DNA of 64,000 nucleotides from the human T2T-CHM13v2.0 reference genome, Homo sapiens (GCF_009914755.1 NC_060926.1); one strand, 5' to 3'. Counted from the stretch's first letter, positions 7,708 to 15,632 are shown. Made by a program: numbers and translations. The notes: generated from the letters alone by a model not told the origin.

Positions 7708-7896
7708 TTAAGAATTCTGGAGAGGGATGGTGTGATGGTTGCACAACAATGTGAGTGTACTTAATACCGCTGACATGTACAATTCAAATAGTGAAGACGG
7801 TAAATTTTATGTTTTGTATATTTTACCAGAATCTAACAAACAAAAAAGCAAAACAACTCAAGGCCTGAGCCACAGAGGTTTCTTACAAATGTGAGT

Positions 7897-7902
7897 TTTA
7901 TT
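7897..7902 (-). terminator. Distal polyadenylation signal AATAAA
   Basis: tttatt on +; downstream GU/U-rich tract (+ strand aacaaacaaaaaagcaaaacaac, ~7835-7857); UGUA motifs upstream. Confidence 0.8.
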
Positions 7903-7980
7903 TGCATTCTAACCCAAGCACAGATCCCACATACAGACTTCTCGTCCGCACTATGGTACAGTAACAAGTGCAAAATATGC

Positions 7981-7986
7981 TTTATT
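7981..7986 (-). terminator. Second, tandem polyadenylation signal AATAAA
   Basis: tttatt on +, 84 nt upstream of the distal signal, with a UGUA just upstream. Confidence 0.55.
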
Positions 7987-10924
7987 TCAGGTACAAAAAC
8001 ATGGCAGTAGGACAACTTTGAGCTCAACGCCCACCTCCCCAGGACCTCTCACACCCACCTGACCCATCCAAGGGCCACACCACCCCGACAGATACTCCCA
8101 CCACCTTTAGAAAAGAGTCACCCAATCTGGAGAAAGGTGTGGAGGTTACATCTTTAGAAAGAAATCATTTTAAATACATGAACATTAGAGAACACAGTAA
8201 CCGTGCTTCCACCCAGCACGGGGAGGCTGCAGAGAGGCACCCCAAACAGTCCCCTTCTCTTCTGTGGTTAACCAAGCAAGCCCCGCAAAGCTTTTCCCAG
8301 CAGAGCACACCCAGCCAGCAATGAGGCCTCAGGACAGAGCCAGCACTGTGACAAAAGAACTTGTCCCACCTATCTGAGAGCATGAGATCTGCAAGTGGGA
8401 TCCGGACTGGACACCAGGAAGCTCAACCTGGCTCGGGCCATCAGTAGCTGTGGGACCCTGGCCCCCATCTAACCTCCCAGTTGACTTCCTGAAAACTGGG
8501 CTAGTGGGGGCCTCCCCATTGCTTTAGGGAGGATCGAGTGAGAAGCTGACCAAATGCGCAGAACACAAAGCCTAGCCTGTTAGCCCCAGCTGCTATCACT
8601 ACTGTTACTCACGAAGAAAGGAACTGCAGTGGCTGCTGTCTGCCCCTGGAGTGAAGACACCAGGGGTGCACAGAGGCTGGACAAGCCACAGGGGGCTGGA
8701 TGGCCACAGCCGGACCTCGGACCCATCTCCCGTGGGACTCCTTCCATTTGAGGCTGTCCATCCTCCAATGGCAGATGCAGAATTCTCAGGCCCAGGATAC
8801 CCTTATGGAGGGCCGGGGGGCGGCCCCTCAAAACCACCAAGCTGAGGCCACTGTGAGCAGTCCCCTTTGTAGCAGGAAGAGCAGCTGGACACATGGGAAG
8901 AGGCTTGCAGGCTCCAGAGAAGCCAAAAGGTCCTCAGTCCCCAAGGTACTAGGTGGAGGTGAGATCAGGCTGCCCCTCCCAGGACAAGAGTGTGAGCTGG
9001 CCAGGAGGCCACTGCTGCCCACCACTGCTCAAAGTCCTTCTCCACGCATCAACCCTGAGGGACCTGGCCAGGGGATGCAGACCAAAGGCCCAGCGGGTCC
9101 CCAGGAACAGGAAGCAGGCGGCAAGAAGGAAAGCAAAGGGCTCTGCATTCCCACCACGAGGCGGGGTGGACTCTGCAGGAGCCAGCTGAAGCACCAGAAC
9201 CTTCCAAGGGGGGCTCGCCAGCCACACAGGACACGAGATGCGTGATAGGCAGGGTTAATGCAGAAACCGCTCATCTGAATGCTTCCCCTGCTTCCAAGCG
9301 CAAACCAAGTCATTTTATTCTTTTAAAAAAGCCCTTACTGTCTGAGGCTTTCTTTAAATAATCCAACAGGGATGGAGGTAATGGAGGTCTGGCTCAGTAG
9401 TCAGCAGACTTTTTCTGTAACGGGCTAGACGGTAAATATTTTGGGCTTTCAGAGCCAAGAGGCAAAATCAATATTATGTTGGCGTAAGAGCAAACAAATT
9501 TCCACAATTTTTAAATTGATAAAATCCAAAATACAATAATTGAGTACATATTTTTGGTAAATACATGTCTACTAAAAATAAGAATTTTTTTTTTTGTGAT
9601 GGGGGAGAAAACACTTCATTGGGTTCAAAGATAATATTCCCTATCATAAATCAGTGGCATAAACAGCCAGTGGGCCAGGTGGGCCCACCGTATGCTAGCT
9701 GACAAGGGCAGTCACACACCGGTAAGTGCTGATACAGGATGAGGGGTGCGGAGCTGAGGATGTTGTTCTCTTTGATGAAGGCCTGAAAACTTCCCCTGGC
9801 CCCTGCTGCCCACCTCAGGGCTCCTCAGGACGAAGGGCATGAGGACAGGTTCCCACTCTGGCCCTTCGCTGGGGGACATGGTTTGGTTTCCCCATCGCCA
9901 GGCTGGCCAGCTGGGGCCCAAGCACTGACCGTCCTTCCCCACCTTATCCCATCAGCTGCCCTGCACAGGAGCAGAAAACCCATGCCTCAGAGCTACTTCC
10001 TAAGGACACTGCCTCTAGAAGGCCCTAAAGTGGCAGAGCCGGGGATGGCAGGTGCAGCCCTGGCCACTAGCACAGCAGTTGCCCTCAGATCTGTTAGCTG
10101 TGACCCATAGATTGGGGGAGGGAGGAAAGCCAGGAGGAGCTTTTGCAGAAAGGTCTGGAAGCTAAGTGGGGGTTTCAGGAGCTCTCAGGGTGCCCCTGGG
10201 CAGGTCCCAAGGAGGCCTGGGGTGCCTGACCAGCACCTCACTGGCCCTCAAGCCCTGTCCCTAAGGGGCGATGGGAAGGAGGTGGCAATCAGAAGAGGGT
10301 ACAAACATTTCCTACCTGCAACCCTGGACCGGTAAGATGACACAGAGCATGCAACCCGAGCGGAAGTGCCTGTGTGAAGCCAGTCATGTGGGAGACCCGC
10401 TCTAGAGACCTTGCCCTGCTCTGGGGGCCTCGCCCAGTGCCACTTACACTGTCTAGAAAAGCTAAGGCCACCAGCTTCATCCACTCTCCAGGAGGTCACA
10501 CAAGATCAAAAGAGGATCATCGAGCTACCGAGGGAGCCTGTTTTCCCCAAATGCGAAGGGAACAGCAGTCATCTCCACACCTTGCCAAGCTGAGGCTGCT
10601 TCTGGCTGTGCTCATGGCAAATTCATGGGCAAGGGAAGGAACCCAGGTACACATGTAAACACGCACATGTGCACCAATGACACAGACTGTGCCTGCACTG
10701 TGTCTGGCCCCTGGCTGGCAAGGAATATCTGGGAGCCCCCATAAGTTTGCGGAGGAAGTAGTCAGCCCAGTTAGGAGCTAGGGCTGATTCCCAAAGACAC
10801 GATGGACACAATCTGACCCATGTCAAGAAGCATGCCGCCTTGCACTGCAGGAGCACTGGTGGCACTGTGTACAACCAGGATGGGCACACGTAAAGGTCTC
10901 CTGCCTGTTGTGCAATTTTCAAAG

Positions 10925-11062
10925 ATTTTTTATTTTCAAAAAGACAGAGATGGAGTCTCACTACGATGCCCAGGCTGGTCTCGAACTCTTGGCGTCAAGT
11001 GATTCTCCCACCTCGGCCTCCCAAAATGCTAGGATTAGAGGCATGGGCCACCACGTCCAGCT
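10925..11062 (-). mobile_element. Alu monomer (FLAM-like) in the 3' UTR
   Basis: cccaggctggtctcgaactc...cctcggcctcccaaaatgctaggatta. Confidence 0.88.
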
Positions 11063-12744
11063 TTTTGTACGATTTTGATGGAGGGAAAAATGGGAAAACC
11101 CCTCAGATTCATTTCATGGCAGGTTGGTGCCATCTTCAGAGATCACCAAGCCTATATTTGTAAGAGGAGGAGATAGAGACCCAGAGAGGCAAAGAGACTC
11201 ATACTGAGCGAGGGTCTGGGATCTAGGACCCTGACTCTGGGTTCTCTGTTCCTCTTCCTACACCCCAGGCAGTGTCAACATCTAATCCCCCACCCCCGCC
11301 CAATCATCCACTGCTTTCTCACCCCCTCTGAGCGCCTAGGGACTTTCTCCCTCTGCTCCACTGACAACAGCCTAAGAGGCTTTTCCGTTTATTTCATCGA
11401 CTTGTTAATGATTTTCAGATCTTCAGTTACTCAGGCCAGCCCCTGAAGCAATGCTGGACTTGGAAACTTGTGACCCTGGCTGGCTCCAGTCCACTGCTGG
11501 TAAAGCCTTCCCTAGGTTAATAGCTCTGTGTAAGGGGCTCTGGGCTGTCTGGGCAAGAGGTCACTAGGGCAACACCTGACCTTTGTTTAGGACCCCAAGT
11601 CAAAGCCTCGACCTCCCCACCCCATCCTGTCCTTTCCACAGGCATACCATGCCCCTCCTCCAGCAAACCTATTATTCCTCCATTCAACAGCCTCTGTCCC
11701 TTCATCCAGAAAGGACAACCTGGTAAACAGGAAAGGGTTTATCTCAACCTTGCAGATACCCCGCAAAAACCGTGACGACCTAAGAGTAAGGAACTCAGCT
11801 TTGGGCTTCCAGTTCAAGATGGTGGCCTGAGCACATGTGTCTGTCTTATTTCCCTCTGGGGTTCACTGTAAAAAGAAGCTACAGTTCAGAAGCCACAGGT
11901 TGGTGGGAATGCCCTGGGAAGAGCTGTCCTGCTCAATAGGCCAGCACCTCCGGACTCACAGGAAAGACCCTGGACAGCTGTGGGAAGGGCTATGGCTTTT
12001 CTGTATGTCAATCAAATGAAAAATAAAACCTGGAGCTTTAGCTCATCTGACCCCTGTGGAAGGGATGAGCTGCTAAATTAGGCAGCTGAGATATTTTGGT
12101 ACCAAATTACCATGTGTACTTTTTTTTGGTATTTATTATTTTCTATTCTTTCATAAGCTATAAGCTTTAACTACAACCACGAGAAGGTAAGAAGAGCAGA
12201 TGCCAGGGGCATGCCAGAAAAATGGAAGACTCTACTAATAGCACACTTAAGGTAACAGACTTTTATTACATCTTCTTTTGGAACTTAGAAGACAATATTA
12301 GCCTCCTACACTTTTGAGAATTAAAATTTAGCCCACCATCATTTGGCCTTGGTAGTGACATCACTTGGGTACAGTGATGACAGACAGCCTAAGGGGCTGG
12401 ACCTCAGAAGACTAAAGGTCTAGTCCTGGTCCTTCCACTAATGGGCTATGGTGACCCTGAGCACATTATTCCACTTCTAGGTGATTCAGTTTCCTCATGA
12501 CTCATAACAGGAAATCATTGGTCTCAACCTTCCTCCAAGGACTAGTGTGTGGAGCTAGAACATGCACCAAGGAAGACTGGGGAACATCAGAGAGAGATAG
12601 GACTCAGTACCGTTGACTCAGGTAAAGAGGGAGACAGCAAGAACAGAGTAGAAAGGCAGCATAAAACTGGTGGAACCAAACACAGACTAAGTAAAAAAAA
12701 AAAAAGGTAAGCTTCCCAACGACACCATGTCCCAGGAAAGAAGA

Positions 12745-14102
12745 TCCAGTAAGAAGCAGAGGCCTTTAGCAAGGATGCCAAGACAATTCCGTGGAGAAAG
12801 GATATTTTTCTCAATAATCAGCAGTGGGACAAGTGGAGATCCACAAGCAAAAGAATGAAGCTGGACCCCTACATCACATCATATATAAAAATATACTCGA
12901 AATGGATCAAAGACCATTGTGAGAACTAAAACTATACAAGTTCTTAGAAGAAAACACAGGCATTAATCTTCTTGACCTTGGATTAGGCAATGGTTTTCTA
13001 GATATGGCACCAAAAGCACAAGTGACAATAGAAAAAAAATACGTATCTTGGAAATCATCAAAGTTAAAAAGTTTTGTGTCTCAAAGGACACCAACAAGAA
13101 ACTGAAAACAATCCACAGAAGGGGAGAACATTTTTACCAGTCATATACCTGATAAAAGACTGGCGTCTAGAATATACAAATAGCTCACCCAACTCAATAA
13201 TAAAAAGAAGGCTCATCCCTGGTAGTCTAGTGGTTAGGAAAACAGAAAACTTAAAAAAAAAAGACAACTCAATTAAAAATAGGCAAAGGACCTGGATAGA
13301 CCTTTCTCCAAAGAAATACGCATGGCCCGTAAGCACAGGAAAAGACACTCAGCATCAGTTGCCATCAGGGGAATGCAAATCAAAACCACAAGATAGCATT
13401 TCATACTCATTAGGATGCTAAAAGCAAAAAGACAGATAATAGCAAGTGTTGATGAGGATGTAGACAAATTGAAACCTGGATACATTGCTGGTGGGAATGT
13501 AAAATGGTACAGCTGCTATAGAAAACAGTCTGGCAGTTTCTCAAAAAGTTAAAACACGGAGTTACTGTAAGACCTAGCAATTCCACTCCTATGTATATTG
13601 CTAAAAGAAATGAAAACATATGTCCACACAAAATCTTGTAGAAATATGTTCATAGCAGCATCATTCAGAGTAGCCAAAAAGTAAAAACACACAAATGTCC
13701 ATCAACTGATGAATCAATAAACAAATGTGGTCTATCTATACAATGAAGTATTATTCAGCAATACAAAAGAATGAAGTACTGATACATCCTCAACTTGGAC
13801 GGCCCTAGAAAACATTCAGTGGAAGAAGCCAGTCACAAAAGAGATATCACATGATTCCAGATATATGAAATGTCCAGAGTAGGTTAATCTTACATAGAAA
13901 GTAGATTCATGGCTGCCTTGGACTGCAGGAGTTAGGAAAGCAGGAGTGACAGACCAAGGGTACGGGGTTTTACTGGGGGTGATGAAAATGTACCAACGTT
14001 GACTGTAATTCTGTGAATTGATGGTGGTTCTGTGAATACAATTGGACACTAGCAATGGGTAAACTGAATGGCATGTGAATGACATCTCAATAAAGCTGTT
14101 AG
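12745..14102 (+). mobile_element. L1M (L1MB-like) ORF2 end and 3' UTR, antisense within the TFCP2L1 3' UTR
   Basis: aaaagaatgaagctggaccc, gaccttggattaggcaatggt, gaatgcaaatcaaaaccaca, terminal ctcaataaagctgtt. Confidence 0.9.
13216..13262 (+). pseudogene. Retroposed 5' fragment (nt 1-24) of tRNA-Glu(CTC) with A-rich tail
   Basis: tccctggtagtctagtggttagga is a 23/24 match to the tRNA-Glu-CTC 5' end; A-rich tail; imperfect TSD aaaaagaaggctca / aaaaagacaactca; interrupts an L1. Confidence 0.85.
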
Positions 14103-15632
14103 TTAACCCACTCCCCGCTTCTCTCTAAAGAAGGAAGAGGAATCAGGAGCCTGTCCTCACTCTGTTCTGTAGGAATGCCATGGCTATTACCCAACATAAT
14201 GACTAACAGAGCCCCTTTTATTCCGAGATGTCCTGGTTTATATGATAAATTTATATCGCTACCCTATCACTATGTGCTACCATGCAGGTGACTTTGCCCC
14301 TCTGAGCCTTGGTTTCCTCATCTATAAAACAAGTTCTCCCCATTGTAGACCCTGTTTTATTCTGGTAGTCCTTCAGTCTAGCACTTCATTCCACAGAAGC
14401 TCCATTTAGAAGCTATGACATCCCATTCAGGTGGTCAGAGGGTTCCCCATGAACCTAAATTAACCAAGAGCTGAAGCCCTGGGCCAGTAGAGATCACTGG
14501 ATCCCAGGAACCAGAGGCAAGACAAAGACGAATTTCTGAGTCTACCACAGTTACTGACACTCAAATTTCCCGATAGTTAGGCCATTAAGAAAGATGATGC
14601 ACCCATTCTGATGCAGGCAAAATATCCTAAACATAGCCTCTACAAACAAAGATAAACATGTAAGTGAGGGGCACTCAGAGAAAACACATCGCTCCTGTGG
14701 CAAGTTTAGCAGCGGTTCAACAAGGTCTTCTCTAACTTTCTATAAGTCCATCCAAGAGGGCCTGGTATTGTGGTGGTCAAGGTCATCTGATGACACCTAG
14801 GAATGGAATACTCATTCCTAATCCTCCTTACCCGTGATTGCCAGGAAATAAAATAGTCTTTTTCTATTACCATCCCCCTAACCTCCCCACAAAGGGCCTC
14901 AGAACTAATGTCTCTGAGAAAGGCCATGCACATACATTGTGGCATCTACCATGCCAATGCGCCAGTGCAGAGACAGGAGCACATCTTTGGGTTCCGCAGC
15001 AGCAGATCCTTAGAAACAACGTAGAGAAGAAAGAGGTAGAAGGCACAGAATAGCCCCACTCCCATCAATTCATCCAAGAACAGGAAAGGCGGATGCTCAC
15101 CAGGGTCACTGAGAAGGGAAGCAAACCTGAAACAGGAGAATGAGGGCAAACTGCTCCCATCAAGTCGGCAGTGCTGGCCATGCAGCCAACTCCCAGAGGA
15201 GGAGGTAAAGGTACCAGCTTCCAGGGTGAAGCAGAGCTTTCTCTGGAGGCAGGAGAGTGGTCAGAAGGGACCAATACAGGCAGCACCAAGATACCCAATC
15301 AGCTTCCAACTAAGGGATGAGGGGTTTCAGAGCAGACGTCTCCACTGTTTGCCCTTTTAGAACGTCAGGGTTGGACCAATAGAAAAGAACAAGGAACCAT
15401 TCAAAATCTGGAGGCCAAGAGGAAGGGAGAAAGGAGCCACTGGCTTTCTGTACACCGTACTTGGTGTCCACAGGCTTCTGCTGGTTGGTGCTCTGTAGCT
15501 TTCACAGACTGGGCAGGGTCCCTCCTGGCCTCAGCTTGCCTGGTGAGGCCACAGCTTACAGTGGGGCAATGTCTACATCCACGGGGATCCACAGGGCTGG
15601 GAGCTGGAGACAGGTATGAGGTCCACTGCTGC

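What the first reader, a model, noticed from the sequence alone, without database searches (positions are those of the whole stretch)
13202..13271. Retroposed 5' tRNA-Glu(CTC) fragment gives the TFCP2L1 3' UTR a fully complementary site for 5' tRF-GluCTC
Seen: + strand 13216-13239 reads tccctggtagtctagtggttagga, followed by an A-rich tail, and is flanked by an imperfect 14-bp duplication (aaaaagaaggctca 13202-13215 / aaaaagacaactca 13258-13271) that interrupts an old L1. Known: human tRNA-Glu-CTC begins TCCCTGGTGGTCTAGTGGTTAGGA, and its 5' fragments are among the most abundant tRFs (sperm, stress, viral infection). A tail plus TSD is the L1 target-primed retrotransposition signature, so a tailed tRNA fragment rather than a whole tRNA seems to have been copied. 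Because TFCP2L1 is transcribed from the minus strand, the mRNA carries UCCUAACCACUAGACUACCAGGGA, which pairs with tRF nt 1-24; the single difference (pos 9) is a G:U wobble. Inference: a retroposition-derived tRF target or sponge site in a naive-pluripotency factor, possibly one case of a wider tRF-retrocopy regulatory layer. Short tRNA look-alikes are known as a class; function here is unproven.
Basis: partly seen in the sequence, partly recalled or inferred. Interest (0 to 1): 0.8.

Follow-up and report, generated by a model that had tools for sequence, protein, structure and literature searches.

The report
Fossil tRNA-Glu fragment in TFCP2L1 UTR
A 24-base copy of the start of a glutamate tRNA was pasted long ago by the LINE-1 copying machinery into what is now the untranslated tail of the TFCP2L1 gene; it is real, but it looks like one of dozens of similar neutral relics, and its match to a tRNA fragment was already noted in print without any test of function.

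Summary
Window 13216-13239 (+) equals nt 1-24 of genomic tRNA-Glu(CTC), differing only at nt 9 (G to A). It is unique in the window and absent from shuffled controls. It interrupts an old high-copy repeat (LINE-1 by recall), with an A-rich tail and a duplicated target site.

New points:
- A diverged paralogue on contig C10 (~57.33 Mb) carries the same insertion. It is a processed retrocopy of the TFCP2L1 3' UTR, with AATAAA, a tail remnant and its own target-site duplication. So the insertion is old, and germline TFCP2L1 mRNA ran through the site to an internal poly(A) site near 12247.
- With that copy and 28 L1 relatives as references, the 24-mer's intactness fits neutral drift (P about 0.15; 164 of 995 flanking 24-nt windows are equally unchanged).
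- It is one of at least 34 tRNA-Glu 5' copies ending at nt 22-27, mostly A-tailed, beside 26 tailless copies ending at nt 33-42. Changes at nt 9 recur, as expected if the template carried m1G9.
- Baglio et al. 2015 already listed this 24-nt antisense match in TFCP2L1 as a putative target, with near-neutral phyloP.

Verdict: a known kind of L1-mediated tRNA-fragment retrocopy. Its function as a tRF site is unsupported but not excluded.

The parts
13216..13239 (+). 24-nt retrocopy of tRNA-Glu(CTC) nt 1-24, with A instead of G at nt 9; antisense to TFCP2L1 mRNA
13240..13257 (+). A-rich tail (aaacagaaaacttaaaaa). Under the long-duplication reading only 13240-13247 (aaacagaa) is tail
   Evidence: The C10 paralogue shares aaa[c/t]agaaaactt, so the non-A bases predate the split
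13202..13215 (+). 5' copy of the target-site duplication (aaaaagaaggctca); may begin at 13191
   Evidence: The C10 paralogue keeps caattta here, closer to the L1 relatives, so the three mismatches arose on the window lineage
13258..13271 (+). 3' copy of the target-site duplication (aaaaagacaactca); may begin at 13248
12760..13950 (+). Host: old high-copy interspersed repeat (LINE-1 ORF2 3' part by recall), split by 56 extra bases at 13209-13264
   Evidence: coverage by 28 relatives; Pfam gave no hit
12247..14095 (-). Stretch of the TFCP2L1 3' UTR that was retrocopied to C10:57330369-57332774 (L108 407-2812)
12262..12267 (-). AATAAA hexamer of an internal poly(A) site; homology with the retrocopy ends 15-17 nt downstream of it
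14217..14222 (-). AATAAA hexamer between the stop codon and the site; candidate for a short UTR isoform lacking the site (usage unknown)
14356..14361 (-). AATAAA hexamer between the stop codon and the site; candidate for a short UTR isoform lacking the site (usage unknown)
7879..15632 (-). Annotated TFCP2L1 3' UTR (from the hub annotation); AATAAA at 7897, 18 nt before the annotated end
   Evidence: Hub annotation

Best explanation
The 24-mer is a molecular fossil. LINE-1 target-primed reverse transcription copied a short RNA made of nt 1-24 of tRNA-Glu(CTC) plus a short A-rich tail into an older L1 fragment on the + strand. That spot is now antisense within the long 3' UTR of TFCP2L1.

The template was most likely a 5' fragment of mature, modified tRNA. 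The A at nt 9 is best read as a reverse-transcriptase misreading of m1G9 (inferred).

The insertion predates a second L1-mediated event, in which a TFCP2L1 transcript ending at an internal poly(A) site near 12247 was retrocopied to C10. That places the insertion tens of millions of years back: 7.5% and 11.2% lineage divergence since the split, or roughly 35-90 Myr depending on the rate assumed.

Since then the site has drifted like its surroundings. Its near-perfect complementarity to 5' tRNA-Glu fragments follows automatically from its origin and orientation. Most likely it has no regulatory role, or a negligible one.
For: - Identity and non-randomness.
- Insertion into a repeat: 14 of the 15 L1 relatives aligned lack it. 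These 15 were chosen from 29 fetched because both flanks aligned.
- Retroposition hallmarks: the 5' duplication abuts tRNA nt 1, there is an A-rich tail, and the duplication matches 11/14. Its three mismatches are shown by the C10 copy to be later window-lineage changes. The top-strand target ...aat|aaaaag resembles the L1 endonuclease site (that consensus is recalled).
- Only one other locus in 3.1 Gb shares the fragment-tail junction.
- That locus is collinear with window 12247-14095 at 77.8% identity over 1,832 columns, including 494 bp that are otherwise unique in the genome. It ends in AATAAA plus 15-17 nt plus a tail remnant, flanked by ataggggtgg/ataggggagg. It is therefore a processed retrocopy of the UTR.
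- Neutrality: window-lineage divergence is 0.075 over 995 polarised L1 sites, giving P(0 changes in 24) = 0.154. 164 of 995 neighbouring 24-nt windows are equally unchanged. The C10 copy has 3 extra changes, as expected. Published phyloP for the hit is 0.146, or 1.067 relative to the UTR (PMC4529699).
- Class membership: among 74 distinct loci examined, 34 end at nt 22-27, and 25 of those 34 have at least 7 A in the next 10 nt. 16 of the 34 have a flank match of at least 8/10, against 12.6% in shuffled pairings.
- nt 9: it accounts for 13 of 67 mismatches in 56 truncated copies (p = 3.5e-6; 1.2e-3 in the worst case). tRNA-Gly(TCC), with the same TGGTGGT context, gives 2 of 64. m1G9 made by TRMT10A is reported for Glu-TTC and, at lower confidence, for Glu-CTC (PMC7293042 Table 2).
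Against: - Zero window-lineage changes in the 24-mer lean weakly towards constraint (P about 0.15). The test has little power on 24 sites.
- The whole UTR lineage is slower than the C10 copy (7.5% against 11.2%), which could reflect some constraint on the UTR.
- A luciferase reporter carrying a reverse complement of tRF5-GluCTC in its 3' UTR is silenced in an AGO1/AGO4-dependent way (PMC7699471, passages), so such a site can respond in principle.
- The retrocopy shows the site was present in germline mRNA.
- The tail is impure, and the duplication length is ambiguous (14 or about 25 bp).
- Internal priming on a whole tRNA, or template switching, cannot be excluded as the source of the 3' end at nt 24.
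- tRNA-Asp(GTC), which carries m1A9, shows no nt-9 excess: 3 of 42 non-identical copies.
- No cross-species alignment could be made here.
Confidence: 0.8

Rival explanations
1. One reading: the antisense 24-mer is a working target or sponge site. 5' tRNA-Glu(CTC) fragments, loaded in AGO (or PIWI) proteins, pair with it and lower TFCP2L1 mRNA or translation, or the abundant mRNA titrates the fragment.
For: - 24-nt pairing with a single G:U, -46.6 kcal/mol; site unpaired probability 0.50 against 0.46 for its context.
- It lies in the annotated 3' UTR and upstream of two poly(A) sites that were or are used (12262 and 7897).
- An artificial antisense-GluCTC reporter is silenced through AGO1/4 (PMC7699471).
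- No window-lineage substitution in the 24-mer since the split from the C10 copy.
- Proposed earlier as a putative target (PMC4529699).
Against: - Preservation is within neutral expectation: P = 0.154, and 164 of 995 control windows are equally unchanged.
- Published phyloP is about 0.15.
- The site is one of at least 60 truncated tRNA-Glu copies scattered by retroposition, so an antisense copy in some UTR is expected by chance.
- The studied tRF5-GluCTC is about 30 nt, and a review states that the 5' portion of such tRFs 'seems not so important' for silencing (PMC7150941, passage). This site pairs only with nt 1-24.
- m1G9 on the fragment would block pairing at nt 9 (established chemistry of N1-methylguanosine).
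- AGO2, the slicer, was not required for the reporter effect.
- AATAAA hexamers at 14217 and 14356 may give isoforms without the site.
- No experiment on this site was found.
Confidence: 0.06
2. Same fossil, different template: reverse transcription began inside a whole tRNA-Glu (internal priming, as proposed for tailless retropseudogenes), or the enzyme switched from the poly(A) end of another RNA onto the tRNA. No pre-formed, A-tailed 24-nt fragment was involved.
For: - Noll et al. 2015 argue for internal priming, because they found no oligoadenylated truncated 5S or U2 copies (PMC5322556, section 16, read).
- 26 tRNA-Glu copies ending at nt 33-42 are tailless (1 of 26 A-rich).
- The tail here is short and impure; under the long-duplication reading it is only aaacagaa.
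- tRNA halves fused to LINE-1 are reported (bioRxiv 10.1101/2025.02.02.635956, passages).
Against: - 25 of 34 copies ending at nt 22-27 carry A-rich tails of about 7-28 nt. Internal priming on tRNA sequence (...GGATTCGG...) does not supply these.
- The ends cluster tightly (nt 24: 15 loci; nt 22-25: 31 of 34), as expected for a defined RNA end.
- No second-template sequence other than A-rich sequence is seen.
Confidence: 0.25
3. The 24-mer is part of an L1 subfamily consensus and arrived in the UTR together with the L1.
For: A second locus (C10) has the same L1 plus insertion at about 77% identity, similar to unrelated L1 copies.
Against: - Only that one locus shares the junction in the genome.
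- Its homology extends into 494 bp of otherwise unique sequence.
- It ends with poly(A)-site, tail and duplication features of a retrocopied TFCP2L1 transcript.
- 14 of 15 aligned relatives lack the insertion.
Confidence: 0.01

Closest known systems
Tailless retropseudogenes of tRNAs and other small RNAs (Schmitz et al. 2004, not held here and cited from the reference list; Noll et al. 2015, PMC5322556, abstract and several sections read)
   Same: 5'-complete, 3'-truncated tRNA copy inserted by the L1 machinery and flanked by a target-site duplication. The 26 copies ending at nt 33-42 found here fit that class.
   Different: This copy and most of the nt 22-27 group carry an A-rich tail. At 24 nt it also falls below the 30-nt minimum of the 2015 screen, so it would not have been counted there.
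Classical L1-mediated processed retrocopies of polyadenylated RNAs
   Same: A-rich tail, target-site duplication, a target resembling the L1 endonuclease site, and a precise RNA 5' end.
   Different: The template is a 24-nt piece of a Pol III transcript that is not normally polyadenylated. The tail is short and impure.
tRNA-half/LINE-1 chimeric insertions (bioRxiv 10.1101/2025.02.02.635956; passages read)
   Same: Truncated 5' tRNA pieces mobilised by L1, with breakpoints that the authors relate to known tRNA cleavage.
   Different: Those are co-inserted with a new L1 segment, mostly antisense to it, and end near nt 37. Here the L1 is an older host, shown by duplication of L1 sequence on both sides, and the piece ends at nt 24.
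tRNA-lookalikes (Telonis et al. 2014, PMC4189335; passages read)
   Same: Non-tRNA genomic loci that resemble nuclear tRNAs; Glu is among the most represented.
   Different: That catalogue kept only hits within 2 nt of full tRNA length, so 24-nt pieces are outside it.
tRF5-GluCTC trans-silencing (antisense reporter, APOER2; PMC7699471 and PMC7150941, passages read) and the 2015 complementarity screen (PMC4529699, Table 2)
   Same: A 3' UTR sequence antisense to a 5' tRNA-Glu fragment. TFCP2L1 itself is listed as a 24-nt hit in the 2015 table.
   Different: The natural TFCP2L1 site has never been tested. It pairs with nt 1-24 only, whereas the studied fragment is about 30 nt and is said to depend less on its 5' part.

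Membership tests
L1-mediated (target-primed) retrocopy | Target-site duplication flanking the insert | tested here: met
   13202-13215 against 13258-13271, 11/14 identical. The C10 paralogue shows the 3 mismatches are later changes. L1 relatives overlap both flanks.
L1-mediated (target-primed) retrocopy | A-rich 3' tail | tested here: met
   18 nt with 13 A (or 8 nt with 6 A under the long-duplication reading). Impure already before the C10 split.
L1-mediated (target-primed) retrocopy | Insert begins at the RNA 5' end and carries no gene flanks | tested here: met
   The duplication abuts tRNA nt 1. The upstream 7 nt align to L1 sequence in the C10 copy, not to any tRNA-Glu leader seen in L005, L006 or L029.
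L1-mediated (target-primed) retrocopy | Empty site in related sequences | tested here: met
   14 of 15 aligned L1 relatives lack the 56 extra bases. An orthologous empty site in other species could not be examined.
Tailless retropseudogene (Schmitz 2004; Noll 2015) | No oligo(A) tail; the duplication starts at or overlaps the truncated RNA end | tested here: not met
   An A-rich stretch separates the fragment from the 3' duplication. 25 of 34 copies of the same end class are A-tailed.
Tailless retropseudogene (Schmitz 2004; Noll 2015) | Truncation in a single-stranded region; length at least 30 nt in the 2015 screen | tested here: inconclusive
   The end at nt 24 lies at the 3' edge of the D arm (placement by tRNA numbering, recalled). 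The length of 24 nt is below the screen's minimum (PMC5322556 methods).
tRNA gene | Cloverleaf and internal promoter (A and B boxes) | tested here: not met
   ARAGORN finds 0 genes in 12000-14500. Rfam has no tRNA hit. No B-box-like motif in 13216-13400.
Functional small-RNA (tRF) target site | Complementarity within a transcribed 3' UTR | tested here: met
   hub annotation. The retrocopy proves past inclusion in mRNA.
Functional small-RNA (tRF) target site | Sequence constraint above the local background | tested here: not met
   P = 0.154; 164 of 995 control windows equally unchanged; published phyloP 0.146. The test has low power.
Functional small-RNA (tRF) target site | Physical association (AGO/PIWI chimeras) and response to gain or loss of the small RNA | not testable with these tools
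   No such data were found for this site.
tRNA-lookalike (Telonis 2014) | Length within 2 nt of the full tRNA | tested here: not met
   24 nt against 72 nt.

The most novel reading that the evidence does not exclude
The site is a lineage-specific response element for tRNA-Glu 5' fragments. In germ cells or naive pluripotent cells, AGO1/4- or PIWI-bound 5' fragments pair with it and tune TFCP2L1. It would be one member of a dispersed set of at least 34 A-tailed nt 22-27 copies that jointly act as targets or sponges. A separate and better supported novelty: these copies form a genomic fossil record of germline, oligoadenylated 5' tRNA fragments that still carry an m1G9 misreading signature.
Probability: 0.05. 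Interest if true: 0.75.

Novelty: new member of a known kind. Interest (0 to 1): 0.3.

Why it matters
For TFCP2L1 itself it matters little at present. The complementarity was already in print as a computational hit, and nothing here points to selection on it.

Two by-products are more useful:
- The C10 retrocopy is a natural neutral control and a time stamp. It shows that germline TFCP2L1 mRNA used an internal poly(A) site near 12247 and contained the site.
- tRNA-Glu 5' copies fall into two sharply different end classes: nt 22-27 with A-tails, and nt 33-42 without. They also show recurrent changes at nt 9, but the same TGGTGGT context in tRNA-Gly(TCC) does not.

If confirmed across tRNAs, this second point would bear on the open question raised by Noll et al. 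2015, namely pre-cut RNA versus internal priming. It would also offer a way to read past germline tRNA fragments and modifications from genomes.

Tried and rejected
- ARAGORN found no tRNA; Rfam at E up to 10 gave only chance-level hits.
- Pfam on five stop-free pieces of the host repeat found nothing, so the LINE-1 name rests on recall plus copy number.
- I tested the idea that the 24-mer belongs to an L1 subfamily (raised) and rejected it.
- A simple scan of the 10 nt abutting the fragment scored the window's own duplication only 7/10. The 14-bp and roughly 25-bp readings cannot be separated.
- tRNA-Asp(GTC), reported to carry m1A9, gave no nt-9 excess (3 of 42 non-identical copies). The modification-footprint idea is therefore not general, or m1A blocks the enzyme so that such copies are never 5'-complete.
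- The Asp and Gly lists were counted by eye from the tables. Their flanks were not fetched, so genes and retrocopies are mixed in them.
- Schmitz et al. 2004 could not be read.
The C10 analysis rests on the 3.2 kb already held.
- 25 of the 125 places were not listed and were never examined. The 20 further tandem-cluster copies (L007-L026) were left out of the class counts as evident genes.
- Searches for papers on modification footprints in tRNA retrocopies or on A-tailed tRF retrocopies found none. Supplements of the 2015 and 2025 papers were not opened and may list such loci.

Full report
**Observation.** The + strand at 13216-13239 reads tccctggtagtctagtggttagga. Genes of the same genome that ARAGORN calls tRNA-Glu with anticodon CTC (L005, L006, L029) have the same first 24 nt except G at nt 9. 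The TTC-type genes also differ at nt 19. The string is unique in the window at up to 3 mismatches, and none of 100 shuffles gives a hit. The genome holds 42 places at up to 1 mismatch, against 0 for the reversed pattern. No tRNA gene is present, Rfam finds nothing relevant, and there is no B-box-like motif downstream. The minus-strand mRNA therefore carries the antisense 24-mer with one G:U opposite nt 9. The computed duplex is -46.6 kcal/mol, against -48.9 for a perfect complement. By the hub annotation the site lies in the last exon, 2,394 nt after the stop codon and 5,337 nt before the annotated end.

**Anatomy of the insertion.**
- The flanks belong to an old, very abundant interspersed repeat: 879 first-look candidates, and 39 scored relatives at 75-81% identity on many chromosomes. 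I recognise it as the 3' part of LINE-1 ORF2. No tool here names repeat families, and Pfam gave no hit on its decayed frames.
- I aligned the window with 15 of the 29 fetched relatives, namely those in which both flanks aligned. 14 of them run straight through where the window has 56 extra bases, 13209-13264.
It begins with an A-run preceded by T, like the LINE-1 endonuclease target (consensus recalled).
- Relatives overlap both flanks by about 18 nt. The duplication may therefore extend to about 25 bp (13191-13215 / 13248-13271), with the tail reduced to aaacagaa. I could not decide between the two readings.

**A second copy, and what it is.** One relative, on C10 (L108), carries the same insertion at the same place...caattta tccccagtaatctagtggttagga aaatagaaaactt....
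- A search with the insertion plus flanks and a search with the fragment-tail junction at up to 3 mismatches show that this is the only other such locus in the genome.
- It is collinear with window 12247-14095, at 77.8% identity over 1,832 aligned columns.
- Window 12247-12740, which lies outside the repeat, matches nothing else in the genome. This rules out an L1 subfamily.
- Read in mRNA sense, the C10 copy ends with AATAAA, then 15-17 nt, then aaattaaaaataaaa. The whole is flanked by ataggggtgg (L108 397-406) and ataggggagg (L108 2813-2822). In the parent, homology stops at the same point after the AATAAA at 12262-12267.
- The C10 locus is therefore a 5'-truncated processed retrocopy of a TFCP2L1 transcript that used an internal poly(A) site near 12247.
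- Three things follow. The L1 and the tRNA piece were already in the UTR at that time. Germline TFCP2L1 mRNA ran through the site. And the C10 copy serves as a neutral comparator.

**Age and constraint.** I used 28 other L1 copies as an outgroup over 995 sites.
- The window lineage has changed at 7.5% of sites since the split and the C10 lineage at 11.2%. Another 5.0% of sites are shared derived changes from before the split. At commonly used rates this puts the split roughly 35-90 Myr ago (the rates are assumptions).
- The A at nt 9 is shared by both copies, so it dates from the insertion or soon after. The C10 copy has three further changes in the 24-mer and the window copy has none.
- Under the window-lineage rate, the chance of no change in 24 sites is 0.154. 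164 of 995 neighbouring 24-nt windows are also unchanged.
- The intact 24-mer therefore needs no selection, although 24 sites give little power.
- Baglio et al. 2015 report a mean 100-way phyloP of 0.146 for their TFCP2L1 hit, or 1.067 relative to the UTR (PMC4529699, methods and Table 2 passages). Because the 24-mer is unique in the window, that hit must be this site.

**The class.** A search with nt 9 left free and up to 2 other mismatches found 125 places, with 0 in the control. 100 of them were listed. I examined 80: 70 newly fetched and 10 fetched earlier. The 20 further tandem-cluster genes were left out, and the 25 unlisted places were never seen.

After removing 6 identical duplicates, 74 loci fall into three groups.

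| Group (3' end) | Loci | At least 7 A in next 10 nt | nt 9 not G | Flank match at least 8/10 (shuffled control) |
|---|---|---|---|---|
| nt 22-27 | 34 (15 end exactly at nt 24) | 25 | 11 | 16 (12.6%) |
| nt 33-42 | 26 | 1 | 6 | 6 (3.2%) |
| Full length | 14 | 0 | 1 | 1 (0.7%) |

The nt 33-42 group is the published tailless class (PMC5322556). The nt 22-27, A-tailed group, to which the window copy belongs, falls below that paper's 30-nt cut-off. It is also the kind of oligoadenylated truncated copy the authors looked for in 5S and U2 and did not find (section 16). The tight ends and the tails favour a pre-formed, A-tailed 5' fragment as template. Internal priming or template switching remains possible.

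**Position 9.** Among the 56 truncated copies within Hamming distance 2 of the gene sequence, 13 of 67 mismatches fall at nt 9 (6 A, 6 T, 1 C).
- The only comparable column is nt 19, which marks the TTC isodecoder. The binomial p is 3.5e-6, or 1.2e-3 if the 25 unseen hits all add mismatches elsewhere.
- tRNA-Gly(TCC) has the same TGGTGGT context and does not appear in the published table of position-9-modified tRNAs. It shows 2 of 64 mismatches at nt 9 (counted by eye; Fisher p = 0.0047).
- TRMT10A-dependent m1G9 is reported for Glu-TTC and, at lower confidence, for Glu-CTC (PMC7293042 Table 2).
- I therefore read the A at nt 9 as a reverse-transcriptase misreading of m1G9, which would mean the template came from mature tRNA. 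This is an inference.
- tRNA-Asp(GTC), with m1A9, shows no such excess (3 of 42). That either limits the idea or reflects a block to full-length copying.
- Three searches found no paper describing this.

**Function.**
- For: a reporter with a reverse complement of tRF5-GluCTC is silenced in an AGO1/AGO4-dependent manner (PMC7699471), and the site has been part of the mRNA.
- Against: there is no excess conservation. The site is one of dozens of dispersed copies, so an antisense copy in some UTR is unsurprising.
- Against: the studied fragment is about 30 nt, and its 5' part is said to matter less (PMC7150941), whereas this site pairs only with nt 1-24.
- Against: m1G9 would break pairing at nt 9. 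Two AATAAA hexamers (14217, 14356) lie between the stop codon and the site.
- No experimental work on this site turned up.
- I put the functional reading at about 5-6%.

**Verdict.** The regulatory inference is unsupported, and the complementarity itself was already published as a prediction. The element is a new member of a known kind.

**Limits.**
- No other species could be aligned.
- Repeat-family names, the endonuclease consensus and the substitution rates are recalled.
- The Asp and Gly controls lack flanks.
- Supplements of the cited papers were not opened.

Noticed in passing
L108 407-2812 (G000:C10:57330369-57332774) against window 12247-14095: A 5'-truncated processed retrocopy of the TFCP2L1 3' UTR, with AATAAA, a tail remnant and a 10-bp target-site duplication. 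It shows past germline use of an internal poly(A) site near window 12247.
   Followed up: yes
L108, about 2215-2295 and about 680-955 (aligned opposite window about 13593 and about 12499-12534): The C10 retrocopy later gained an ~80-bp palindromic element (aagttggtgcaaaagtaattg...caattgcttttgcaccaac; it looks like a mariner-derived MITE by recall), a long (GAAA)n expansion and a (TA)n run. These could help bracket its age.
   Followed up: no
Genome-wide; loci L001-L100: tRNA-Glu 5' retrocopies fall into two end classes: nt 22-27 with A-rich tails (34 loci) and nt 33-42 without tails (26 loci). The first class is below the length cut-off of the published tailless screen.
   Followed up: partly
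nt 9 of the tRNA-Glu copies (window 13224): Recurrent G to A/T at nt 9 in truncated copies (17 of 60), but in only 1 of 14 full-length copies and rarely in tRNA-Gly(TCC) copies with the same local context. This fits misreading of m1G9 during retroposition. tRNA-Asp(GTC) shows no such signal.
   Followed up: partly
L004, L027, L028, L077/L078: Several anticodon-loop-truncated copies carry the same extra 5-6 nt (gacgc / gatgc) directly before tRNA nt 1. This may be a 5' leader of one source gene, which would point to pre-tRNA templates.
   Followed up: no
window 13068-13421 (+): A 117-codon stop-free frame runs through the host repeat and the inserted 24-mer. There is no Pfam hit, and it is most likely accidental.
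   Followed up: partly
G000:C1:160.58-160.73 Mb (L006-L026): At least 21 tandem units about 7.4 kb apart, each with tRNA-Glu(CTC), Gly(TCC) and Asp(GTC). A few units carry single changes in the Glu gene body (L009, L010, L020, L021, L025).
   Followed up: no
window 12760-13950 against L108: The UTR-resident lineage has changed less than its retrocopy since the split (7.5% against 11.2% over 995 polarised sites). This could reflect weak constraint on the UTR as a whole or regional differences in mutation rate.
   Followed up: no
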